Shown: in pieces, positions 3,115 through 62,000 of the stretch | How the letters are laid out: each line of letters starts with the position of its first letter | How positions within the stretch are numbered: position 1 is the first letter of the stretch | Assembly (NCBI RefSeq): GCF_004010195.1 | Contig: NC_057718.1 | Coordinates: forward strand, 98,304,518-98,366,517 | Length of the DNA stretch: 62,000 bases | Source of the DNA: Chiloscyllium plagiosum | Taxonomy: Eukaryota | Direction of reading: 5' to 3' | Translations under genes and position numbers: made by a program | The notes under the pieces: generated by a model | Told to the model about the DNA's origin: nothing | Database searches by the model: none | What the model saw: only the letters and a program-made list of their open reading frames with translations

Positions 3115-3940
3115 TGCTAACAGGAAAGGCCGTTCGGTCCGTCAGTCCTGCTCCACCATTCAATAGGATCATGGCAGATCTGACATTCCTTAAGGCCATT
3201 TTCCTGTATTTTCTCCATAACCCTTTGTTCCCCGACTGATCGAGAATCTATTTATCTCAGCCTTTAGTATACACAAGGACTCTGGTCCCCACAGCTGTCT
3301 GTGGCAAGGGGTTCCACGCACTATAAGACATCAGAGAAGAAATTCCTCCTCATTTCAGACTTAAATTGATGCCCCTTAATTCTGAGTTGAAAAGTGTGGG
3401 GCTGGAAAAGCACAGCAGGTCAGGCTGCATCCGAAGAGCAGGAGAGTCGTTGTTTTGGGCATAAGACCTTCATCAGAAATATGGAGGGGGGAGGGGCGGA
3501 GAGATAAATGTGGGGGGTGGGGCTGGAAAGAAGGTAGCAAACTCAGGTACCTGGATAGGGTGCTCTGATCTGGCAGTGGAGGAGGGTCAGGATTTGCATG
3601 TCATTGGGGAAGTGGGAGGGGGAGTTGAAGTGGTCAGCCACAGGGCAGTGGGGTTGTTGGGTGTGTACTGACCAGAGATGTTCTCGGAAGTGTTCCGCGA
3701 ATTGGCATCCTGTAGAGGAGACCACATTGAGAGCAACGGATGCAGTAAATGAGGTGGGAGGATGTGCAGGAAAATCTCTGCCAGATTTGAAATGATCCTT
3801 TGGGCCATGGATGGAGGTGGGGTAGGGGAGAGGTGTTGCCCCTTTATTCTGAGACCCCTTTATTCTGGTCCCAAGAGCGGAAACATCCTCTCAGCATTGA
3901 CCCTGTCAAGCCCCTTAAGAAGAGATATGTTTCAATCAAG
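3115..3940 (-). mobile_element. CR1 LINE 3' fragment interrupted by a Penelope-like fragment (about 3390-3830)
   Basis: Reverse CR1 3' UTR/ORF2 breaks at cccccttaattctgag (about 3385) and resumes at ccctttattctgagac (about 3840). The insert encodes a PLE GIY-YIG C-terminal peptide (FREHLWSV..PVADHFNSPSH) and has a degenerate hammerhead at 3447-3476. Confidence 0.75.
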
Positions 3941-4289
3941 TTTTGCTATGACACTGTTCAGCACCATTCTGTCCATCCAGTAATCTTCACTATATGTCTA
4001 GATCGATGCACAAAACATTCTGTAAAAAAGGTGAATGAAACAGGCAGCACCATATTCTTCTGCTGAAGAGTTCACTGGGTCTAAATTTGGTACATACGGT
4101 TGTATTATGAAATGTCTGATCTTAGTAGTTAGCAACAACTTTTGTACAGTCCCTTTAATGTAATAAGTCATCGTAAAAATGCTTCCCGAGAGCATTAGCA
4201 AACACAAACTGACACCAAGTTAAATAAGGAGAATTTGGACAGTTGACCTAGTGGTCAGTCAACGAAGAAGGTTTTAAGGGATGTCCATA

Positions 4290-5285
4290 AGACCACAGGA
4301 GCAGAAATTAGGCCATTCGACCATTGAGTCTGCTGCACCACTTGATCGTGGCTGATAGGATTCTCAACCCCATTCTCCCCGTAACCTTTAATCCCCCTGG
4401 CAATCAAGAACCTATCTATCTCTGTTCTAAATATACTCAATGACCTGGCCTCCACAGCATTCTGTGGCAATGAATTCCACAGACATACCACACTCTGGCT
4501 AAAGAAGTTTCTCCTTATCTCCATTCTAAGGGTCTTCCCTTTACTCTAAGGCTGTGCTCTCAGGTCTTCTTCTCTCCTGCCAATGGAAAGATCTTCCCAA
4601 CGTCCACTCTGTCCAGACGTCCAGTTTTTTGTAAGTTTCAATCAGATTCCCCCCTCATTCTTCTGAACTGCATCAAGTATAGTCCCAGAGTCCTCAAACG
4701 TTCCTCATATGTTCAGCTTGGGATCATATTCATGAACCTCCTCTGGACTCACTCTAGGGCCAGTTCATCCTTCCTGAGGCACAGGGCCCAAAATTGCTCA
4801 GAAAACTCTAAAAGTGGTCTGACCAGAGCCTGATAAAGCCTGAGAAATATATCCCTGCTTTTAAATTCTAGTCTTTTTGAGATGAATTACAACATTGAAT
4901 TTGCCTTCCAACTACCAAATCAACCTGCAAGTTTACCTTAAGAGAATCCTGGACTAGGACTCCGAAGTTCCTTTGCACTTCAGATTTCTGAATTTGCTCC
5001 CCATTTCGAAAATAGTCCATGTCTCTATCGTAAATGAGGAAAGAGAAGTGGAGGCAGGTTTTTCACACATACGGTTGTGAGTGCGTAGAAGGTGCTGCCA
5101 GAGGAGGTGGTGGAAGCAGATGCAATAGCAGCACTCAGGAAGCACCTGGATGAATACATGAATAGGAAAGGGAATAGAGGGATTTGGATCCTGTAACTGA
5201 AGACAATTTTAGTATGGACACACGAAATGCATCAGCGCGGGCTTGGAGGGCCGAAGGGCCTGTTACTGTGCTTATTGTTCTTTGC
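4290..5285. mobile_element. CR1 LINE fragments (minus 4290-5030; plus 3' end 5030-5285)
   Basis: Minus ORF RRNFFSQSVVCLWNSLPQNAVEARSLSIFRTEIDRFL is CR1 ORF2 C-terminus; the following plus segment has a CR1 3' UTR. Confidence 0.8.
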
Positions 5286-5577
5286 GATACCATGAGCTTT
5301 CAGGAGGAAATTTCAGAGCTTGGAAGCTAGATGGCACATGGCCACTAATTGCGAGATGTGGAATACAGACTGGGCTCGTATCAGAACAATTCCAAGTTCT
5401 CACATGGAGGAGCAACATATCAAAAATTGGAAATTTTCAAAGTGTGCATCCATTTTATCACCGTTTGAAATTATAGTGATTAAATATTGAAGCTTGAAGG
5501 TCTGATTTATTCGGAGACACGTAGCACTCCAACAAACACTGTAAATGGCTTTTCAAAGATTTTCGGAAACTTTATTT

Positions 5578-6202
5578 TATGATAATATGATGTACAAGCC
5601 CACTTCTGATGTATCAAGGAGATAGCATAGACCCTAACTTTTTCTTATTTAAAGGAAAGTGTAATTCAATTGGTTACACTATTCAGCTTTAAGCAAAATA
5701 CACTTTATTTCTATTCCACAGTTAAAACACAAAGAAAGAAGAATTGATCTAACTATTGGAAAACTCAACAGAATAATAAGATTATTTAACTGGTAAACAG
5801 CAATTGTTCCAATACAGTAACATCCCATAACCAACCCTTGGCAAAGGCAAATTCAGTAAAATAGATTGTCTCACATGCAATGTGTCTCCAGTCCAGGAGA
5901 AAAGTACATCAAGGAAAATTCTGGCGCAGAGAGAGTGAGAGAATTCATGTGTTTTGCTGTACCAGGGAGAGATCCATGGCAACTTCAAAACCCCAACAAC
6001 TACTGATAGCTATAGTAAAACCCTAGTTCTGTGGGAGCCTGACCCCACCCATTCAGGCTGCTTCTGTTGTTCTAACTTCCAAAAAAAAGACGTCACAAGC
6101 TGTTTACTTTATTGGTTTGGAACAGATCGCTGCATCTCTGTCTCAACCTCTCTTCATTAAAAAAAGACAAAATACACCTCCTAAAGCCATAGTATCATCA
6201 CA
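5578..6202 (-). mobile_element. Probable solo LTR
   Basis: About 625 bp with imperfect inverted termini (tatgataatatgatg ... catagtatcatcaca) and a minus-strand AATAAA near 5704; no TSD recognised. Confidence 0.4.
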
Positions 6203-6516
6203 ACAGTTTAGTCCATTCCAATAATTTCTGCCCTTGCACCATTTTTCACTCCCATTAATTGTGTGCAACCACAATGATGCCAATTCGCACCAGAAACTTT
6301 GTTTATTGAAATCTTCATATGAAACAACAAATTATAAACAAATTTCAGTTCATTTATAACCCTGCTAATATTCTTTAATTCTCGAACACATATCTCCAAC
6401 ATCCAGTTAAAACGAGGTAATTTGAGTTCAAATATCTATATTAACTGGCATAACCACCACCCAATAAATCTAATTGCAGGTTCTGTGTGATGCGCATTAT
6501 GTTTTTCTTTTGACAG

Positions 6517-6692
6517 GTGAAGGAGATTGTTACTCAGCAAACTAAGGAATGGTCAGAAATGATAAACATACATTGTGCAGAAGAGCAGGAACTGAAGGAT
6601 CTTCATTTAAGCCAGCAGTGCGATTTGTTGAAGAAACTGCTCATCAGTATGCATGAGCAACAAAGCCAGCACCTGAAACTTATTCATGATAG
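6517..6692 (+). CDS. PLCB4: PLCB4 internal coding exon ([59 protein letters not shown])
   Basis: Acceptor tttttcttttgacag|GTG; donor AG|gtgtgt; 176 nt, ends phase 2. Strong similarity to recalled human [42 protein letters not shown]. Confidence 0.96.
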
Positions 6693-7183
6693 GTGTGTAA
6701 AACAATTGTTTGATATTAAGAAAACTTATTTTTTCTTTAGGTCAAAGTTCCTGACTTCCCCTCTTTTCAGCTATGTTTGCACGTGGGTATCCTTGGAGAG
6801 GGAGCATCCGGTATCCACCAATACCTTTCGAGAGGGATGTGCACCACAAGAGGTGGAGAACCTTATCTCCCCTTCCAATTCCCTTTTGATTCAGCTCCCT
6901 GCCTCTCTCCCTACCTTTGGTGGTCTGCACTGCTCTTAACAGACTTTGCGCGGAAACTAATCAATAGAATACCATGGGTGATTTAATGGTGGTGATTTAC
7001 ATGTGACAAATAACACAGGTGGTTTGGTGTTGGAGAAAAAAGCCATTCCGTTTTGTGTGATAACACTTTCGAATATGAAATTAGAAAGGCTAACTTTTCC
7101 TGGCCCTCTTCCACAGCTATGTCTGACCCCAGATGTCAATAGCAAGGGAGCACACTGTATGCACTAACACCCTTGAGTTATTT

Positions 7184-7385
7184 AGATTTGATTTGATTTG
7201 ATTTATCGTAGTCATGTGTACATAAGTACAGTGAAAGGCTTTGTGTGTAAACAGTACAGGCAGATCATAGTAAGCAAGGACACATAGATCATAGATTGCT
7301 GAGATGGAGTGAGGCATATAGGTTACACTGCACAGGGGATGTGTGAAGCAAAATCAACATTAACAAGATCAACATTATTTGAAAG
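7184..7385 (-). mobile_element. Rex1/Babar LINE 3' UTR fragment
   Basis: (gattt)n tail and UTR similar to those attached to the Rex1-type ORF fragments at 29784-30545 and 42966-44673. Confidence 0.6.
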
Positions 7386-7819
7386 GAACATTATTAGTAA
7401 TTTTTACAAACTTAGAATTTAGGTTTAAAAGTGTGCATCGGTTAAAAGAAATGTTAGAATAAAATCTGCTATAGGGGGATGGCAAGGAGTCGCCCAGTGT
7501 CAGTGCCATCTTGAACAAGAGGGGCGCACCTTGGCTGTTGGAATGCATTATTTCCACCTCCAACTCCGTTTTAGTTTAGTCCTCTCCCTTCTTCCTTTAC
7601 TTGCTTCACTGTTGCACTGCCCTCGCTAGCTGTTTGCTTTAATTTGTTAGTGGGGTGATTTGGTGGTGGGTTATTTGACACAAGATGGGTTTTCCTCTGT
7701 TGTAATCAATTTGTTGACAATTCTGGGTGATTTGGTGGGGGCTTTCCCCCACTAAGTAGATTTAATCAAGAAGGGGAGAGGGCAGACTGGAATTTATACT
7801 GAACTATGAAATGCAAACA

Positions 7820-8577
7820 GGAAAGCAAATCTTAGCAGGACTTATACACTTAATGGTAAGGTCCTAGGGAGTGTTGCTGAACAAAGAGACCTTGGAGTGC
7901 AGGTTCATAGCTCCTTGAAAGTGGAGTCGCAGGTAGTTGGATAGTGAACAAGGTGTTTGGTATGTTTTCCTTTATTGGTCAGAGTATTGAATTGGGAGGT
8001 CATGTTGCAGCTGTACAGGACATTGGTTAAGCCACTATTGGAATATTGTGTGCAATTCTGGTCTCCTTCCCATCGGAAAGATGTTGTGAAACTGGAAAGG
8101 GTTCAGAAAAGATTTACAAGGATGTTGCCAGAGTTGGAGGATTTGAGCTATAGGGAGAGGATGAACAGGCTAGGGATGTTTTCCCTTGAGCTTCGGAGGC
8201 TGAGGGGTGACCTTATAGAGGTTTACAAAATTATGAGGGGCATGGATAGGGTAAATAGGCAAAGCCTTTTCCCTGGGGTCGGGGAGTCCAGAACTAGAGG
8301 GCATAGGTTTAGGGTGAGAGGAGAAAGATATAAAAGCGACCTACAGGGCAACTTTTTCAAGGGTGGTACGTGTATGGAATGAGCTGCCAGAGGAAGTGGT
8401 GGAGGCTGGTGCAATTGCAACATTTAAAGGGCATTTGGATTGGTATATGAATAAGAAGGGTTTGGAGGGATATGGGCTGGGTGCTGTCAGGTGGGACTAG
8501 ATTGGGTTGGGATATCTGGTCAGTATAGACGGGTTGGACCGAAGGGTCTGTTTCCATGCTGTACACCTCTATGACTG
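7820..8577 (+). mobile_element. CR1 LINE, 5'-truncated
   Basis: ORF LYRTLVKPLLEYCVQFWSP...LERVQKRFTRMLP...RLRGDLIEVYKIM; CR1 3' UTR ending ctctatgact. Confidence 0.92.
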
Positions 8578-9394
8578 ACTCCTTCTTCCTACTTTGGTAA
8601 ACGGATGATTAGTGATGTAACAAGTCTCAATTGAAATCCCGTTTATCCACAGAACCTTACTCATTGCTCCTTTTTCGTAATATGTGAATTTTGTTTGTCC
8701 ATCTCATATTTCGAGATTATTTTCCTTGACTGTGAACTTTAGGAATTTCTATATTGCCCATAATATAAACCATAAGATTTACATTTTTCAGAAATTGTTA
8801 AATCAAGCAGGATAAATTAAATATATTTCTCTGATTCTGTGAGGGAGTTAAGAAGAAATATTGATATCTGGAGTGTGTTGGGGATCTGGACCTCACTGAA
8901 TGGTTAGTAGAGGCAGAAATCCACAACGTGTTTAAGAAACACTTGGATATGCACTGTTTCTCATTCTACTTCATATACCCTCTTCCAGCCACTCAGCGTC
9001 CTAAGTTGGAAGTATGTTGTTGTGCTTTCAGTGTCACTGGATAAAACTTCATTCTGGAACTCACTCTCCAAGGCTCACGCCATCCTGACTATATCACCAT
9101 TCCTTCATTGTCACTGAGTCAAAATCCTGGAACTTATCTCCTGAAAAACACTGCGGGTGACCTTCATCCCAAGGACTGCAGTGGTTCAAGAAGGCCACTC
9201 AGCACCTCTTTCAGGACAATTAGGGATGAGCAACCAACACCAGTTCAGCCAGTAATGTCCACATTCCAAGAATGGATAAAATAAAAAATCAGCTTACAGT
9301 CACCGAGTTATTATAGTTGCCCTTGAAAGCAGTAGTCACTTAGCAACTAGGGATGTTCCAAAGTTCTGATAAGAGGAACAGCATGGTAATCCTG

Positions 9395-20819: not shown

Positions 20820-21010
20820 GAAGAAGTGGATGATCGACCTATCACATTCCCAGCTACCTTCCCCACAGCCCCCCCCCCTTCCATTTATCTCTCAGCCCCC
20901 TTGGCCAACAAGCCTCATTCCTGATGATGGGCTTATGCCCGAAACGTTGATTCTCCTGCTCCTCGGATGCTGCCTGACCTGCTGTGCTTTTCCAGCACCA
21001 CCCACTCGAC
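20820..21010 (+). mobile_element. Penelope-like terminal repeat fragment with hammerhead core
   Basis: Same sequence family as the PLE end at 42238-42555; lies 90 bp downstream of the exon 20673-20730 donor. Confidence 0.75.
20921..20948 (+). ncRNA. Minimal hammerhead ribozyme core
   Basis: CTGATGA-T-GGGC(TTAT)GCCC-GAAA-CG-TT; palindromic ACGT stem III; stem I only partly paired. Confidence 0.65.
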
Positions 21011-42237: not shown

Positions 42238-42429
42238 CCAGCTCAGCACTGTCCCCATGACTTGTCCTACCTGCCTATCTTCCTTTCCATCTATCCACTC
42301 CACACTCCTCCCTGACCCATCATCTTCATCCCCACCCCCCACTCACCTATTGTACTCTATGCTACTTTCTCCCCACCCCCACCCTCCTCTCATTTATCTC
42401 TCCACCCTTCAGGCACTCTGCCTGTATTC

Positions 42430-42457
42430 CTGACGAAGGGCTTTTGCCCGAAACGTC
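42430..42457 (+). ncRNA. Minimal hammerhead core
   Basis: CTGACGA-A-GGGC(TTTT)GCCC-GAAA-CG-TC; stem I weakened. Confidence 0.68.
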
Positions 42458-43388
42458 AATTTTACTGCTCCTCAGATACTGCCTGAACTGCTGTGTTTTT
42501 CCAGCACCGTTAATCCAGAATCTGGTTTCCAGCATCTGCAGTCATTGTTTTTACCCTGTTTTCCCCGGAGCAATGGAGGCTGAGGGGATGACCTTATAGA
42601 GGCTTATAAAATCATGAGGGGCTTGTATAGGATAAATATACAAAGTCTCTTCCCTGGGGTGGGGGAGATCAGAACTAGAGGGCATAGATTTAGAGTGAGA
42701 ACGGAAAAGTATAAAAGAGACCTAAGGGGAAATGTTTTCATGCAGAGAGTGGTATGTGTATGGAATGAGCTGCCAGAGGAAGTGGTGGAGGCTAGTACAA
42801 TTGCAACATTTAAAAGACATTTCAATGGGTATATGAATAGGAAGGGTTGGAGGGATATGGGCTGGGTGCTGGCAGGTGGGATTAGACTGGGTTGAGATAT
42901 CTGGTCAGCATGGACGAGTCAGACCGAACGGTCTGTTTCTGTGCTGTACATCTCTATGATTCTATAACTGCTCTGTCCAGGATCGTAAGATTCTACAAAA
43001 AGTTGTGTGCGCAGCCGCGACCAACTTGGAAGCCAACCTCTCAACCTGGGACTCCATTTACACTTCACGTTGCCATGGAAAGGCTGCCAATATCGTCAAA
43101 GACCCTTCCCACCCCAGTAATGCTCTGTTCCAACCTCTTTCATCAGGCAGATGATACAGAAGCTTGAACATATGCACCAACAGATTCAAGAACAGCTTCT
43201 TCCCTGCTGTTATTAGACTGATGAATGGACCTCCCTAAGTCCAAATAATGTTGACCTTGCTTTGTGGACCTCCTGTGCAGTTGCAACCTTATACACCTTG
43301 TGCTGTCTGAGCACTCTATGATCTGTATGTCCTTGTTTGCTACGAACTGCCTACACTGCTCACAAAACAAAACTTCTCACTGTACACG

Positions 43389-52739: not shown

Positions 52740-53632
52740 ATAAATTTACATAAACCTACCTGTTCAGTCTAATTGCCCAAGTTTGGTCACCTGTATGAAA
52801 CTGGCTGCAAGACTAACTTTTGACTAAGCCAGGAACTGAACTCTGAAAATATATCTGATTATATATAATGGGACTTGAAACAATGAGACTTAAAAGGTTT
52901 TTGCACAGGGTTCTGGCAAATTGGTATTGCAAGATCATTTGCTGGTTAAGGCATTCCAGAAGCAGAGGACATAGGTAAAAAAGAGAGTAAGTTAAGCTGG
53001 AAGTTTGGACAGAAATTTATTTTGCAAAAGGTGGAATGAGTAGGAGAAACTGCAAGAAATTCTGGCTAAATGAGATTTTAAAAAAACAAGTAGACAGCCA
53101 ATACTTGTTTGCTGAAGTGCTTCAGTAAGTTATCTGACTTCCTCCTGGTTACCTGGAGAATGCATTTTGCTTGGCAGTATACTCTTGTATTTTCCTCTGT
53201 TCATCAGCTCTGCAGGTCATTTCATGTCAGCCTTTGGGAAGTGTGGATCAGTGTTGATTTTCCTGCTCCTCCATTGCTGCCTGACCTGCTGTGCTTTTCC
53301 AGCACCACTCTTACCTAGACTCAGAGTGATAACAGGCAAAGTTTGTATCGTCCTGTATCCATCAAAATATCGCAGAAGTTCTTTTGACTGTCTGGATGTG
53401 TCTTTCTGTCAGCATGTGTCACCAGGGGTAATGTGGGTGAGGCGATGATGTGGAATCCATAGTGTTCAGGAAACTGCTTAAATTCTCTGGATGTGAATTG
53501 GGTGCTGTTGTTACACAATGTTCTTTCAGAAATTCCTTGTTCACGCACAGAACTTGTGCTGCTGAGCTGATCGATGTAGCTCTCTAATCTTCCATCTTGA
53601 GGTTCAAAAGTACCTTCAAGTCATCTCTGACT

Positions 53633-57182: not shown

Positions 57183-58712
57183 GGAAGATCCAGGAAGACT
57201 CTTAACTCTACATATGGTCTTTCTTACACTATGATGGAAATTATCCAAACTGCAAGTTCTGTCACTGTGCTTTAGCTTTTTTTCAAGTGTTCCTTTTCCA
57301 TTCTTTATAAGGGGCGTGGATCATTGATTTCATTGCTGGGTTAAAGGAGATGTGAAACACTAGACCTTTCAAATCATCTCACCAAAGTATCTGGGAGCAT
57401 TTGCACCATCTCTTCAAAGGGTGCTTTTTTAATGGGTTCACTGTCTTCAATGCTCAGCCTCCTTCACCTCATGGTTTACTAAGATCATCCACAGTACCTC
57501 ACAGCTGCTCAGCCCCCTGGTCTGTTTCAATGATGTAGAACATACAGTTAACATCTTTTCCTTTGTATAGCGGCCTGATTTAGATTACTCCTGGCTGTAG
57601 AAACTGATGCTTCCTTACGGTGTGATCATGACACCTTCCAAACGTTCAGTGAAGATATTGTAGTCCTGAGTGGGGCAGATAGAGGGTGGGTGTGATGTTA
57701 CTTAAGCTCCAGTGTCTATCTTCGCCTTCAGATTTATGGCTGTGAGCTCATTTCTCAGCCTCTTCCAGACCTGAATGGTTGTGGGAATTTACTTTCTCTG
57801 AACTTTCACATCTAGACAATTCATGTGGTTGTGTGGTTTCATGTATTTATCATATTCTCAAGCTCACTGGCATCTAGGTTATGGACATTTCAGTTTCTTT
57901 TCCAGTATATTCACCTTGGTTTCCTATCTCTGGTGACTCCCCTATCATCTTCTCCCTTTGGTTTGCACATCTTTTGCCAGAGATAGAGCTTTCCATAAGC
58001 TCTGCAGATTGATCCATATGCAGGACATTTCCTCTGTCTGTTAATTCACTTGGTCATCCACAGCCCCTGCATGTCTTTCTTCCCCAATTTGGTGTTTATT
58101 CTTTTGTTCAGGTTTCACTGTGTCAAGCCCTGCTATGTTTCTCTTGGCCTAACTGAGGGCTAGTGGTTTGGCTAGTTGGCACTTTCAGCTGTCTGCTCAT
58201 ACCCTCATATGCTCTGAGAATGTCTACAGCTTACAATATTGTGAGATTATGCTTTCCAATTGGCAGTTCTGGGATGTGAGGACCCCAAATTAGTTCATCT
58301 ATCAGTCTTTCATCGGTGTCCCCAAACCTGTGTTTTCTGACATTTTTCAGTCTTGTTACAAAATTGTCAGCAGGCTCACCCAACCCCCTGCCTGAACCCT
58401 TGAAATTCCTATCAGGAGATCTGGTAGTTGGATCTTGTTTGGAGGTGGATGTTGACTCTTTCAAAACTGTTATCCATGTTTCTGCTATCTTCTGCAGTAA
58501 GTTCCCAGCTGTTAAATGAATATAACGCTTGGTTTCCTGTCCAAGAGAGGTTTTGCCTGACAATTGTTAGTGCCTTTTAGGAAACTGGTGAATGTCAATC
58601 TGTGCTTTTGTTCAAACTTCTCAAATGTCTCCCTGACATCACGAGGTGTCAAGTTCATTCTGGCTGTGCATTCGTTCTGTTCAACACTATGTTTACTGTT
58701 TTATTTTCATGA

Positions 58713-58845
58713 ATTCCTGACGAAGGGGCTTTTGCCCGAAACGTCAATTTTCCTGCTCCTCGGATGCTGCCTGACCTGCTGTGCTTTTCCAGCACCACTC
58801 TAATCTTGACTCTGATCTCCAGCATCTGCAGTCCCCACTTTTGCC
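58713..58845 (+). mobile_element. Short PLE terminal element with hammerhead core (58717-58745) and probable TSD
   Basis: CTGACGA-AG-GGGC(TTTT)GCCC-GAAA-CG-TC; flanks tattttcatga (58702-58712) / tattttaatga (58846-58856). Confidence 0.8.
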
Positions 58846-59032
58846 TATTTTAATGATGGACCCAGTGTTTCTTTCCCTGGCTCTAATTTGGGTCAATTGC
58901 CCCAATCAACATTAAGTTAATTTAAATGTTTTAGGTTTGGTCACATCTGCCGCCATGTTGTCGTGTAAAACATAATGGTTCAGAACGGGCGAATGGTAGA
59001 GACTGTGTTAAGTTGTCCCTAATCTGACAATG

Positions 59033-59154
59033 ATAAAAACAAGGACTACAGATGCTGGAAACCAGAGTTTAGATTAGAGTGGTGCTGGAAAAGCACAGCA
59101 GGTCAGGCAGCATCTGAGGAGCAGGAAAATTAACGTTTTGGGCAAAAGCCCTTC
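59033..59154 (-). mobile_element. Short PLE terminal element with 11-bp TSD
   Basis: TSD atctgacaatg at 59022-59032 and 59155-59165; element is truncated inside a degenerate hammerhead core. Confidence 0.82.
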
Positions 59155-59344
59155 ATCTGACAATGTCGATAGCCTTGGATGGAGGATCTGAGAGTTCATT
59201 TCGACATCCAAATAGCATTGGACTCTGGCTTCTGAAAGCCATTGTGATTGTGCTAACTATCCAATGTAACTGTCCAATGTTAACTGAATTGAATAAGCTT
59301 TATTGTCACGTGAACTCGAATTAGTGCAGTGAAAAGTTTGCAAT

Positions 59345-60250: not shown

Positions 60251-61605
60251 CGATTTCCCTCTGAGTAAGTTTAAAATGTTAACAGTTTTTAAAAAAAGCA
60301 CTCAAGAGAAGAGAAGAGAAATGGACAGAGCAAATGAGATCCGGCACGGGACACCCTCTCCACCCTCGTGTTGGGCAGAAGGTGGGGCAGAGAAGCCCCA
60401 GATGGCACATCCTACTTTAGCACCATCTCTGCAATAACGTACAAATTGGTGTTGGGACTGATGGCTCTTGTTGAAACTCAAAGGGGTTCATCGTCTACCA
60501 CTGTGAACCATCAGGCCTTTGGACTCAGCCATCTCTCTCCAATCCGAGAGCAGCCATATGGTCTTGTAGGACTAGGGTGTCTTTTCTGGGATTTTTTTAA
60601 TATCAGTTTTAGAGACAATATTTCAAAATAGTGGCATATAGCGTTGATTACGTTAATGACATTTTTTTAGGTCAGACAGTTCCTCAGTGACAGTTCTTCA
60701 GTGACATTGTAGTAACACTATAATAATTATAGTATTACTCCAATAATTATTCAAGTTAATACAGTATTTTTCAGACAGCAGGGGGACCCCTGCAGTGTTA
60801 ATAGGAAATTGTTTGTACTCTGGTGGTATGCAACAGGAAAATTAAACATTGCAGGCCATTTGCTTATTTTTGGTTCCAAATAAACTAGGACTGATTTTTA
60901 GCTTAGAAAGAGCAGAGTTTGAAAGTTTTGTTGGCGATCTGATTGGTGTCAGAAGTAAGTATAAATACCATGGTAGAAAAGAGCTTGTTAGAGCAGTTAA
61001 GGGAATAGATTACCCCTGCAGAAAAGATTAGATTTTGAAACTTCCAAACCAAGAGTGTTTGATTAGAAATCTGCTGATTATTTGAAGCTTTGAAAATCTA
61101 AGCTTATAGTTTTGTGAATCTTTGTGGGAAAATACTTCACAGCCTCGGGAAGAAATTATGAAAAATGTGCGAAGTCAAACTTAAAGATTTGATATGGAGT
61201 TTTAAGTTATGAATTTATGTCTTTGCACTGGATAGTGTCAGGAACTAGGATGATACTATTTTTGCTGTGTGTTTTAAGATCTTTCAGACTGTGTTCTACA
61301 TCTAGACAGCTTGGTTTGTTTTTTATTAGTTTTCATTTTTTGTGTCAGACTCTTCCATTATGAAAGAAATCCTGCAGCCTTTGCAACTATGTTTCACTAA
61401 CTGCGTTGTTGTGTTGCCATAGTCTTACCACACCATAGTCACTGCTCTCTCATTAGAGAGAAGTGACTGGTGGTGATTTAACCTGAGGGCCACCAGACCT
61501 CAGGTGAGGGAAGAGGTTGAGAAGGTGAGTCCTTCATGGTAACCTCATGGTCTTGGGAATTGAACCCATACTGTTTGGTATTACACTGCTCAGCACACCA
61601 ACAAT

Positions 61606-61737
61606 TGATTCCTGAAGAAGGGCCTGTGCCCGAAACGTCGAATCTCCTGTTCCCTGGATGCTGCCTGACCTGCTGTGCTGTTCCAGCAATAAAGTTTCAA
61701 CTTTGATCTCCAGCATCTGCAGACCTCACTTTCTCCT
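61606..61737 (+). mobile_element. 132-bp PLE terminal element with perfect 11-bp TSD
   Basis: TSD acaccaacaat at 61595-61605 and 61738-61748; inserted into a family-3 SINE. Confidence 0.9.
61607..61644 (+). ncRNA. Complete minimal type I hammerhead ribozyme
   Basis: Stem I GATTC (61607-61611) / GAATC (61640-61644); core CTGAAGA; extra A; stem II GGGC(CTGT)GCCC; GAAA; palindromic ACGT stem III; predicted cleavage after GTC (61639). Confidence 0.82.
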
Positions 61738-62000
61738 ACACCAACAATCCAGCCAGCTGAGCTAAACCAATTCCCTTCACTAACTAGCCACCACAGTAAC
61801 TGAAGAAAACATATGATCTATCAAGATTGAACACAAAAGGTGCTGGAGATTGGGTCACCTAGGCTCGAAATGTTTGCTTGCTTTCTCTCCATAGTTGCTG
61901 CCTGACCTGCTGTGATCTCCAGCATTTTTGTTTTCAGTTCAGATTCTAGCATCTGTCACACCAGATTTCATTCTGGGCTCTAACATGTTTGACATGTCCA

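What the first reader, a model, noticed from the sequence alone, without database searches (positions are those of the whole stretch)
61595..61748. 132-bp TSD-flanked mobile unit that begins exactly at a complete hammerhead ribozyme
Seen: a perfect 11-bp TSD brackets a 132-bp insert whose second base starts stem I of a fully paired minimal hammerhead (GATTC-CTGAAGA-A-GGGC ctgt GCCC-GAAA-CGTC-GAATC). Two further inserts of about 120-135 bp with their own TSDs (58713-58845, 59033-59154) also start at or inside the ribozyme. Established: Penelope-like elements carry minimal type I hammerheads with palindromic stem III that cleave as dimers. Inference: these are either a non-autonomous, retrozyme-like family mobilised by PLE enzymes, or the ribozyme fold sets a preferred 5' truncation point.
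Basis: partly seen in the sequence, partly recalled or inferred. Interest (0 to 1): 0.78.

Follow-up and report, generated by a model that had tools for sequence, protein, structure and literature searches.

The report
Run-off stubs of a Penelope retroelement
This 132-base insert is one of tens of thousands of stump-sized copies of a Penelope-type jumping gene, a known kind; the stumps mostly begin at the front edge of its small hammerhead motif, not at the motif's cut site, often behind an extra G, likely because the copied RNA starts there, which gives a testable clue to how these elements copy themselves.

Summary
Confirmed: an 11-bp TSD brackets a 132-bp insert carrying a minimal hammerhead. 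It is not a retrozyme but the terminal repeat (+1..+130; +1 = 61608) of a Penelope-like element (PLE): 130/130 identical to the 3' end of a ~4-kb ORF-bearing copy, with GIY-YIG upstream in long copies. Of 100 arms picked by a 3' motif (23,095 genomic matches), 57 begin at -3..+7, 14 run further upstream, none at the cleavage product (+33). 3' ends fall at +95 or +130, the spacing of the published PLE priming sites. +1 lies in an initiator-like TCATTCC; where the element's own C is absent, G precedes +1 in 57 of 100 junctions (3 of 28 at +2..+5), as cap copying would give. Best reading (0.7): reverse transcription primes internally on the first repeat of the RNA and runs off its 5' end, leaving likely dead stubs. 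All 26 head-to-head pairs have one tailed and one tail-less arm. Rare 224/~321-nt tandem units are retrozyme-like but do not appear to be the stubs' source. RT domain unread; RNA data uninformative. This scan noted the pile-up before, in this and other genomes.

The parts
61595..61605 (+). left copy of the 11-bp target-site duplication, inside an older host repeat
   Evidence: empty site in L204 and in a contig of run X1
61606..61607 (+). two junction bases TG not matching the element (which has TC); the G is the candidate cap-derived or untemplated base
   Evidence: long copies; G excess before +1
61608..61737 (+). +1..+130 of the PLE terminal repeat: from the inferred RNA 5' end to the distal priming site
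   Evidence: 130/130 identical to the 3' end of ORF-bearing copy L212; end distributions; loose ends at 61608 and 61737/8 in DNA runs of two organisms
61607..61644 (+). minimal type I hammerhead motif; predicted cut after C61639 (+32); activity untested
   Evidence: architecture as in PMC4209133
61703..61737 (+). optional 35-nt tail between the two 3' end positions (+95, +130)
   Evidence: 54 of 100 arms tailed, 46 tail-less; PMC11167929
61738..61748 (+). right copy of the target-site duplication
58713..58845 (+). 133-bp stub of a related, older subfamily, starting at +1, tailed; TSD 58702-58712 / 58846-58856 (10 of 11)
59033..59154 (-). 122-bp stub of a related subfamily, starting at about +7 to +10 inside the core, tailed; TSD 59022-59032 / 59155-59165

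Best explanation
The insert is a target-site-duplicated copy of the terminal repeat (+1..+130) of an endonuclease-bearing Penelope-like retroelement, likely made when the element's enzyme primed reverse transcription at an internal site of its RNA and ran off the RNA's 5' end, which likely is a capped transcription start at the first base of hammerhead stem I. Shown: identity to ORF-bearing copies, two fixed 3' ends (+95, +130), a sharp 5' edge at about +1, excess G before +1, no peak at the ribozyme cut site, one tailed and one tail-less arm in every head-to-head pair. Inferred: the endonuclease cuts both strands about 11-14 bp apart; either 3' end can prime; a transcript that starts in the repeat always offers the 5'-most priming site only 95-130 nt from its start, so most products are short run-off cDNAs (like retroviral strong-stop DNA) joined to the other end, often through 1-5 nt of microhomology; when both ends prime, one at +130 and one at +95, the two run-off cDNAs are joined head to head. 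The stubs lack the sequence past +130 that the anole enzyme needs, so they would be dead on arrival. The hammerhead rides along uncleaved.
For: Ends: 57 of 100 arms at -3..+7, 14 upstream of -8, 29 at +9..+64, 0 at +33; hazard 15-70 times background; a second subfamily shows the same edge, 35 of 74. G before +1: 57 G, 27 A, 16 T in the first 100 of 17,743 non-C matches (hand count; p=2e-10 against 27%); 3 of 28 at +2..+5; bases further upstream vary, so no shared G-bearing master; an extra G marks capped full-length L1 insertions (PMC11702581, passages). +1 fits the initiator consensus YYANWYY (recalled); the Drosophila and Chlamydomonas PLE start sites lie in the pLTR (PMC8557442, PMC2377424, passages). 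Stem II start to tail end is 118 nt, matching the anole PLE's internal RT start at 111-118; that RNA needs 172 nt past stem II and uncleaved RNA is the main substrate (PMC11167929, main text parts 1-2). In 4 of 25 partial-tandem insertions a downstream segment is joined to +1..+3, as a jump from an RNA end would give. 26 of 26 pairs asymmetric, TSD found in 22 of 24 pairs tested.
Against: No RNA 5' end was observed: the one usable RNA run only mirrors genomic copy depth. Among single-arm inserts the G excess is modest (9 of 18, two being copies of one insertion; p=0.03) and 5 of the 9 G lie inside the TSD; 11 of 20 G cases are inverted junctions where the partner arm can supply G. C at -1 is also frequent in short arms (26 of 53), so the edge is spread over a few bases. 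A third subfamily has a weak edge (5 of 28; 12 of 28 run far upstream). In D. virilis the start site lies 46 nt plus a 75-nt intron upstream of helix I, not at it. None of 9 ORF-start-bearing long copies with a readable 5' junction begins at +1; they begin at about +80 to +166, which needs an extra assumption (a block at the bound priming site). Samples are the first matches on one contig, not random.
Confidence: 0.7

Rival explanations
1. The RNA extends upstream, and the hammerhead fold (or protein on it) sets the edge: either the RT stalls just past it or a 5'-3' exonuclease trims the RNA back to the base of stem I before copying.
For: The edge coincides with the first base of stem I; C at -1 and short upstream matches are above chance; the anole hammerhead folds with protein help; trimming would also give a physical RNA end.
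Against: A stall should fall on the 3' side of the fold (inference), where ends are rare; stem I is only 4 bp, with a U-U mismatch in two subfamilies (references); 14 of 100 arms pass +1 and then end at background rate; a stall does not predict G before +1.
Confidence: 0.13
2. The stubs come from non-autonomous, retrozyme-like master loci (internally deleted 224- or ~321-nt tandem units holding hammerhead, tail and enzyme-binding region) mobilised in trans.
For: Such units exist with recurrent junctions (+208 to -14; +255 to -66) in several insertions and keep all cis parts; animal retrozymes are proposed PLE derivatives (bioRxiv 10.64898/2026.07.22.740005, abstract, first quarter and passages). 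No intact promoter-plus-ORF master was seen.
Against: Only 396 matches extend past the tail against 23,095 core matches. A marker base near +118 is in 9 of 25 past-tail insertions but 0 of 54 tailed arms; this excludes only the marker-bearing units. Both subfamily variants occur in long and short copies (10:4, 52:4, 22:7). This rival changes the source locus, not the run-off step.
Confidence: 0.12
3. Hammerhead self-cleavage (and circularisation) defines the unit.
For: Core is intact in 52,685 copies; 5 of 178 arms (4 events) start at +33, against about 1 expected (p about 0.02); a cleave-and-circularise role was proposed in PMC4209133.
Against: The unit begins 32 nt upstream of the cut; 0 of 100 at +33 in the cleaner sample; two of the five are one palindromic junction; internal and terminal tandem units differ at the marker base where both are readable (by eye), unlike rolling-circle copies of one circle.
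Confidence: 0.04

Closest known systems
EN+ Penelope-like elements, Penelope/Poseidon type (anole PAc, PMC11167929; Adineta Pen2a, PMC3846280; general structure, PMC8557442)
   Same: C-terminal GIY-YIG, hammerhead in the terminal repeat, optional 30-40 nt tail between two RT start sites, 5' truncation, adjacent inverted repeat, TSD; stem II to tail end 118 nt as in PAc.
   Different: Here most copies are only the +1..+95/+130 segment, with a sharp 5' edge and an extra G; I found no paper describing that edge in the passages and listings seen (searches; subscription papers and bioRxiv supplements not visible). The long ORF starts at about +167, not at stem II. The tail is called 'optional at one end' in print; here it is on exactly one arm in 26 of 26 pairs.
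Minimal type I hammerheads of metazoan PLEs (PMC4209133)
   Same: Core boxes, extra base 5' of stem II, G-C closing pair, 4-5 bp helix I, palindromic 15.2-16.2, mostly single genomic motifs 'probably related to truncated PLEs', some opposite-strand pairs.
   Different: Short 4-bp helix II; far higher copy number (over 50,000 exact matches to one motif versus about 4,000-9,000 motifs reported for coelacanth and frog); activity untested.
Non-LTR retrozymes (PMC7229834; bioRxiv 10.64898/2026.07.22.740005)
   Same: Short, non-coding, type I hammerhead, PLE-related; the rare 224/~321-nt tandem units here fit the size range.
   Different: The 132-bp unit is not tandem, does not run from cut site to cut site, has a minimal rather than canonical ribozyme, and shows no lineage of its own.
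L1 twin priming and cap-G junctions (PMC11702581); retroviral minus-strand strong-stop DNA (recalled)
   Same: Second target end primes a second cDNA; extra G at RNA 5' ends; short run-off cDNA from an internal primer near the RNA start.
   Different: In L1 inversions the two segments barely overlap; here both arms copy the same 95 nt from two fixed sites. Strong-stop DNA is tRNA-primed; this is target-primed.

Membership tests
EN+ Penelope-like element | C-terminal GIY-YIG endonuclease upstream of the 3' repeat | tested here: met
   Pfam PF01541 at E=1e-4, 22.8 bits vs cut-off 22.6, in L095
EN+ Penelope-like element | PLE-type RT domain in the same ORF; clade placement | not testable with these tools
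   the middle of every long copy fetched reads N; 'Poseidon type' rests on layout and spacing only
EN+ Penelope-like element | terminal repeat with hammerhead and optional 30-40 nt tail | tested here: met
   35-nt tail, 54 of 100 arms
EN+ Penelope-like element | 5' truncation, inverted or partial-tandem arrangement, TSD | tested here: met
   54 of 100 arms at inverted junctions, TSD in 20 of 46 other arms and 22 of 24 pairs; partial tandems
Minimal type I hammerhead | CUGANGA and GAAA boxes, NUH, helices I and II, palindromic helix III stub | tested here: met
   no Rfam hit at gathering score
Minimal type I hammerhead | self-cleavage as a dimer | not testable with these tools
   cofold of two copies pairs them through the ACGU palindrome but is not the active fold
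Non-LTR retrozyme | two or more consecutive tandem units, each with a hammerhead | tested here: not met
   focal and sampled stubs are single or head-to-head; met only by the rare 224/~321-nt units
Non-LTR retrozyme | unit bounded by ribozyme cut sites | tested here: not met
   0 of 100 at +33; 5 of 178
Non-LTR retrozyme | expressed as linear and circular monomer RNA | tested here: inconclusive
   poly(A) single-cell run laid, no joints or start peaks, repeats confound

The most novel reading that the evidence does not exclude
PLEs replicate by a target-primed version of retroviral strong-stop synthesis and strand transfer: the enzyme primes at +130 or +95 of the 5' repeat, runs off the capped start at +1, and the cDNA end then transfers to the matching 3' repeat of the RNA (possibly freed by hammerhead cleavage at +32, leaving a 32-nt overlap) to copy the ORF. 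The stubs are failed transfers, head-to-head pairs are two failed transfers joined, and partial tandems are mis-transfers. This would explain pseudo-LTRs, tails and inversions with one mechanism and give the ribozyme a role.
Probability: 0.2. Interest if true: 0.8.

Novelty: new member of a known kind. Interest (0 to 1): 0.45.

Why it matters
The element type, its ribozyme, tail and inverted repeats are all published. What matters is the footprint: tens of thousands of near-identical stubs record where PLE reverse transcription starts and stops in vivo. A fixed 5' edge with an extra G, no peak at the ribozyme cut, and a strict one-tail-per-pair rule turn two open questions, how PLEs make their pseudo-LTRs and inversions and what the hammerhead does, into direct tests in the existing anole in vitro system. 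It also warns that dispersed single-hammerhead repeats counted as retrozyme monomers may be dead run-off products.

Tried and rejected
DNA search of the genome with the insert returned nothing because common words are skipped: no evidence. Rfam: no hit. RNA: no RNA holder listed, and the query stretch was mostly flank; run X8 laid nothing, X7 laid 1,112 reads with no start peak or joint: uninformative. Splicing as the cause of the edge (the D. virilis intron ends at helix I): rejected, since no AG precedes +1 and no shared upstream exon is joined to it. A G-bearing master: rejected, upstream bases vary. Test of strand transfer by chimerism: 1 of 71 long arms switches family at about +1 (L184), which a nested insertion or conversion explains as well; variant phasing in 37 arms was mixed: inconclusive. 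Whole-insert folding is not unusual (z=-1.05). PMC7353768 held no relevant passage. Search for strong-stop or strand transfer with Penelope: 0 papers with 3 of 4 terms. Rows dropped: one search kept 178 of 309 hits (core at least 33/40, no N at the junction, hammerhead-selected targets removed); one search kept 53 short arms of 103 in two subfamilies; 5 arms reach the end of the reference and are counted as long.

Full report
Observation. The TSD (61595-61605, 61738-61748), the 132-bp insert and the hammerhead motif are as described. The insert sits in an older host repeat; a paralogue (L204) shows the unoccupied site and a contig of run X1 skips exactly insert plus one TSD. The two neighbouring inserts also have TSDs. 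I number from A61608 = +1; the predicted cut follows +32. No call names the organism; a shark is my recollection from the host repeats and is what earlier scan notes say.

Identity. A 34-nt hammerhead motif has 52,685 exact matches in the 3.56-Gb assembly, reversed control 0; a 23-nt motif specific to this subfamily (+70..+92) has 23,095. Long copies continue upstream into a pyrimidine-rich tract and a GIY-YIG domain. A roughly 4-kb copy with an ORF start (L212) ends in a 130/130 match to +1..+130. The RT region reads N in all long copies fetched, so it was not examined. The insert is thus the terminal repeat of an endonuclease-bearing PLE.

Ends. I took the first 100 matches of the 3' motif (contig C1, first 14.3 Mb) and aligned each to natural copies. 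3' ends are bimodal near +95 (46 arms) and +130 (54 arms). In the anole PLE, RT initiates internally at two sites that bound the tail, the distal one 111-118 nt from the start of stem II (PMC11167929, main text parts 1-2); here stem II (+13) to +130 is 118 nt. 5' ends: 57 at -3..+7, 29 at +9..+64, 14 upstream of -8, none at +33. Ends per nucleotide at risk are 0.127 at the edge and 0.002-0.009 elsewhere. In background copies a second subfamily has 35 of 74 at the edge, a third only 5 of 28. Loose ends at 61608 and 61737/8 recur in DNA runs of two organisms. Small peaks at +2 and +7 come largely from one microhomology-favoured inverted junction.

Why +1. The position lies in TCATTCC, an initiator-like sequence (consensus recalled). 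Where the element's own C at -1 is absent, the first 100 of 17,743 matches show 57 G, 27 A, 16 T (hand count; p=2e-10), against 3 G of 28 before starts at +2..+5. The focal copy has this G. An extra G marks cap copying in full-length L1 insertions (PMC11702581, passages). Caveats: of 20 G cases among 30 loci read, 11 are inverted junctions and 5 lie within the TSD; single arms alone give 9 of 18 (p=0.03). Either cap copying or untemplated addition points to a physical RNA end rather than a stall. Four of 25 partial-tandem insertions join a downstream segment to +1..+3. Against: no RNA start was seen, the D. virilis start is further upstream of helix I (PMC2377424 passages; PMC4209133 parts 1-2), and 9 long copies with readable 5' junctions start at about +80 to +166, none at +1.

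Head-to-head pairs. In 26 of 26 pairs one arm is tailed and the other is not (two pairs share a junction, so at least 25 are independent), and 22 of 24 tested carry a TSD, mostly 12-17 bp including chance overlap. Inverted repeats with a tail at one end are described (PMC3846280, PMC8557442, passages); the simplest reading of the strict rule is that both ends of a staggered cut prime, one at each start site (inference).

Retrozyme question. Only 396 matches extend past the tail. The 30 read (25 insertions) are mostly partial tandems of permuted mini-units, with recurrent 224-nt and ~321-nt units; these resemble non-LTR retrozymes (PMC7229834 passages; bioRxiv 10.64898/2026.07.22.740005). A marker base near +118 is in 9 of these 25 insertions but 0 of 54 tailed arms, and both subfamily variants occur among long and short copies. 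The stubs stop short of the region the anole enzyme needs (172 nt past stem II), so they likely cannot move again. A minor cleavage-derived class (4 events among 178 arms at +33, p about 0.02) is not excluded.

Verdict. A new member of a known kind. Best mechanism (0.7): internal priming on the 5' repeat and run-off at a capped start at +1. Rivals: fold-determined stall or trimming (0.13), non-autonomous tandem masters as source (0.12), cleavage-defined unit (0.04). Bold reading (0.2): strong-stop synthesis followed by strand transfer; the chimera test was inconclusive and a literature search found nothing on it. My reading was recorded before I opened the scan's notes; those notes reach the same view of the edge and the pairs in this and other genomes and are not independent support. 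The G excess, the marker test and the empty site are my own tests. Supplements of the cited papers were not read and may bear on novelty.

Noticed in passing
L124-L127, L139, L140, L142, L146, L149, L150: Recurrent tandem mini-units of 224 nt (+208 joined to -14) and about 321 nt (+255 joined to -66), each with a hammerhead: candidate true non-LTR retrozymes derived from this PLE.
   Followed up: partly
L044/L045 and L069: Two insertions 3.5 Mb apart share the same inverted junction and 136 bp beyond the tail-less arm, including about 125 bp of apparent host DNA: a composite re-copied with flanking sequence.
   Followed up: partly
L184:4440-4640: Upstream sequence of one subfamily joined at about +1 to +1..+95 of another, followed by the first family's tail end: chimera, nested insertion or conversion.
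   Followed up: partly
L095, L151-L158, L171, L214, L218: Long copies that reach the ORF start begin at about +80 to +166, never at +1; L095 is one permuted unit from about +121 round to +130.
   Followed up: partly
window:46323-46466: Head-to-head pair of older PLE stubs; further stubs at 3401-3480, 20917-20997, 42426-42541, 53275-53304 and decayed relatives.
   Followed up: no
window:32490, 34922, 36581, 39440: A second hammerhead-like repeat family with a longer stem II (CTGANGAAGGAGCAGYGCTCYGAAA), four copies.
   Followed up: no
window:59915-60170: Tandem array of about 32-35 bp units seen by eye.
   Followed up: no
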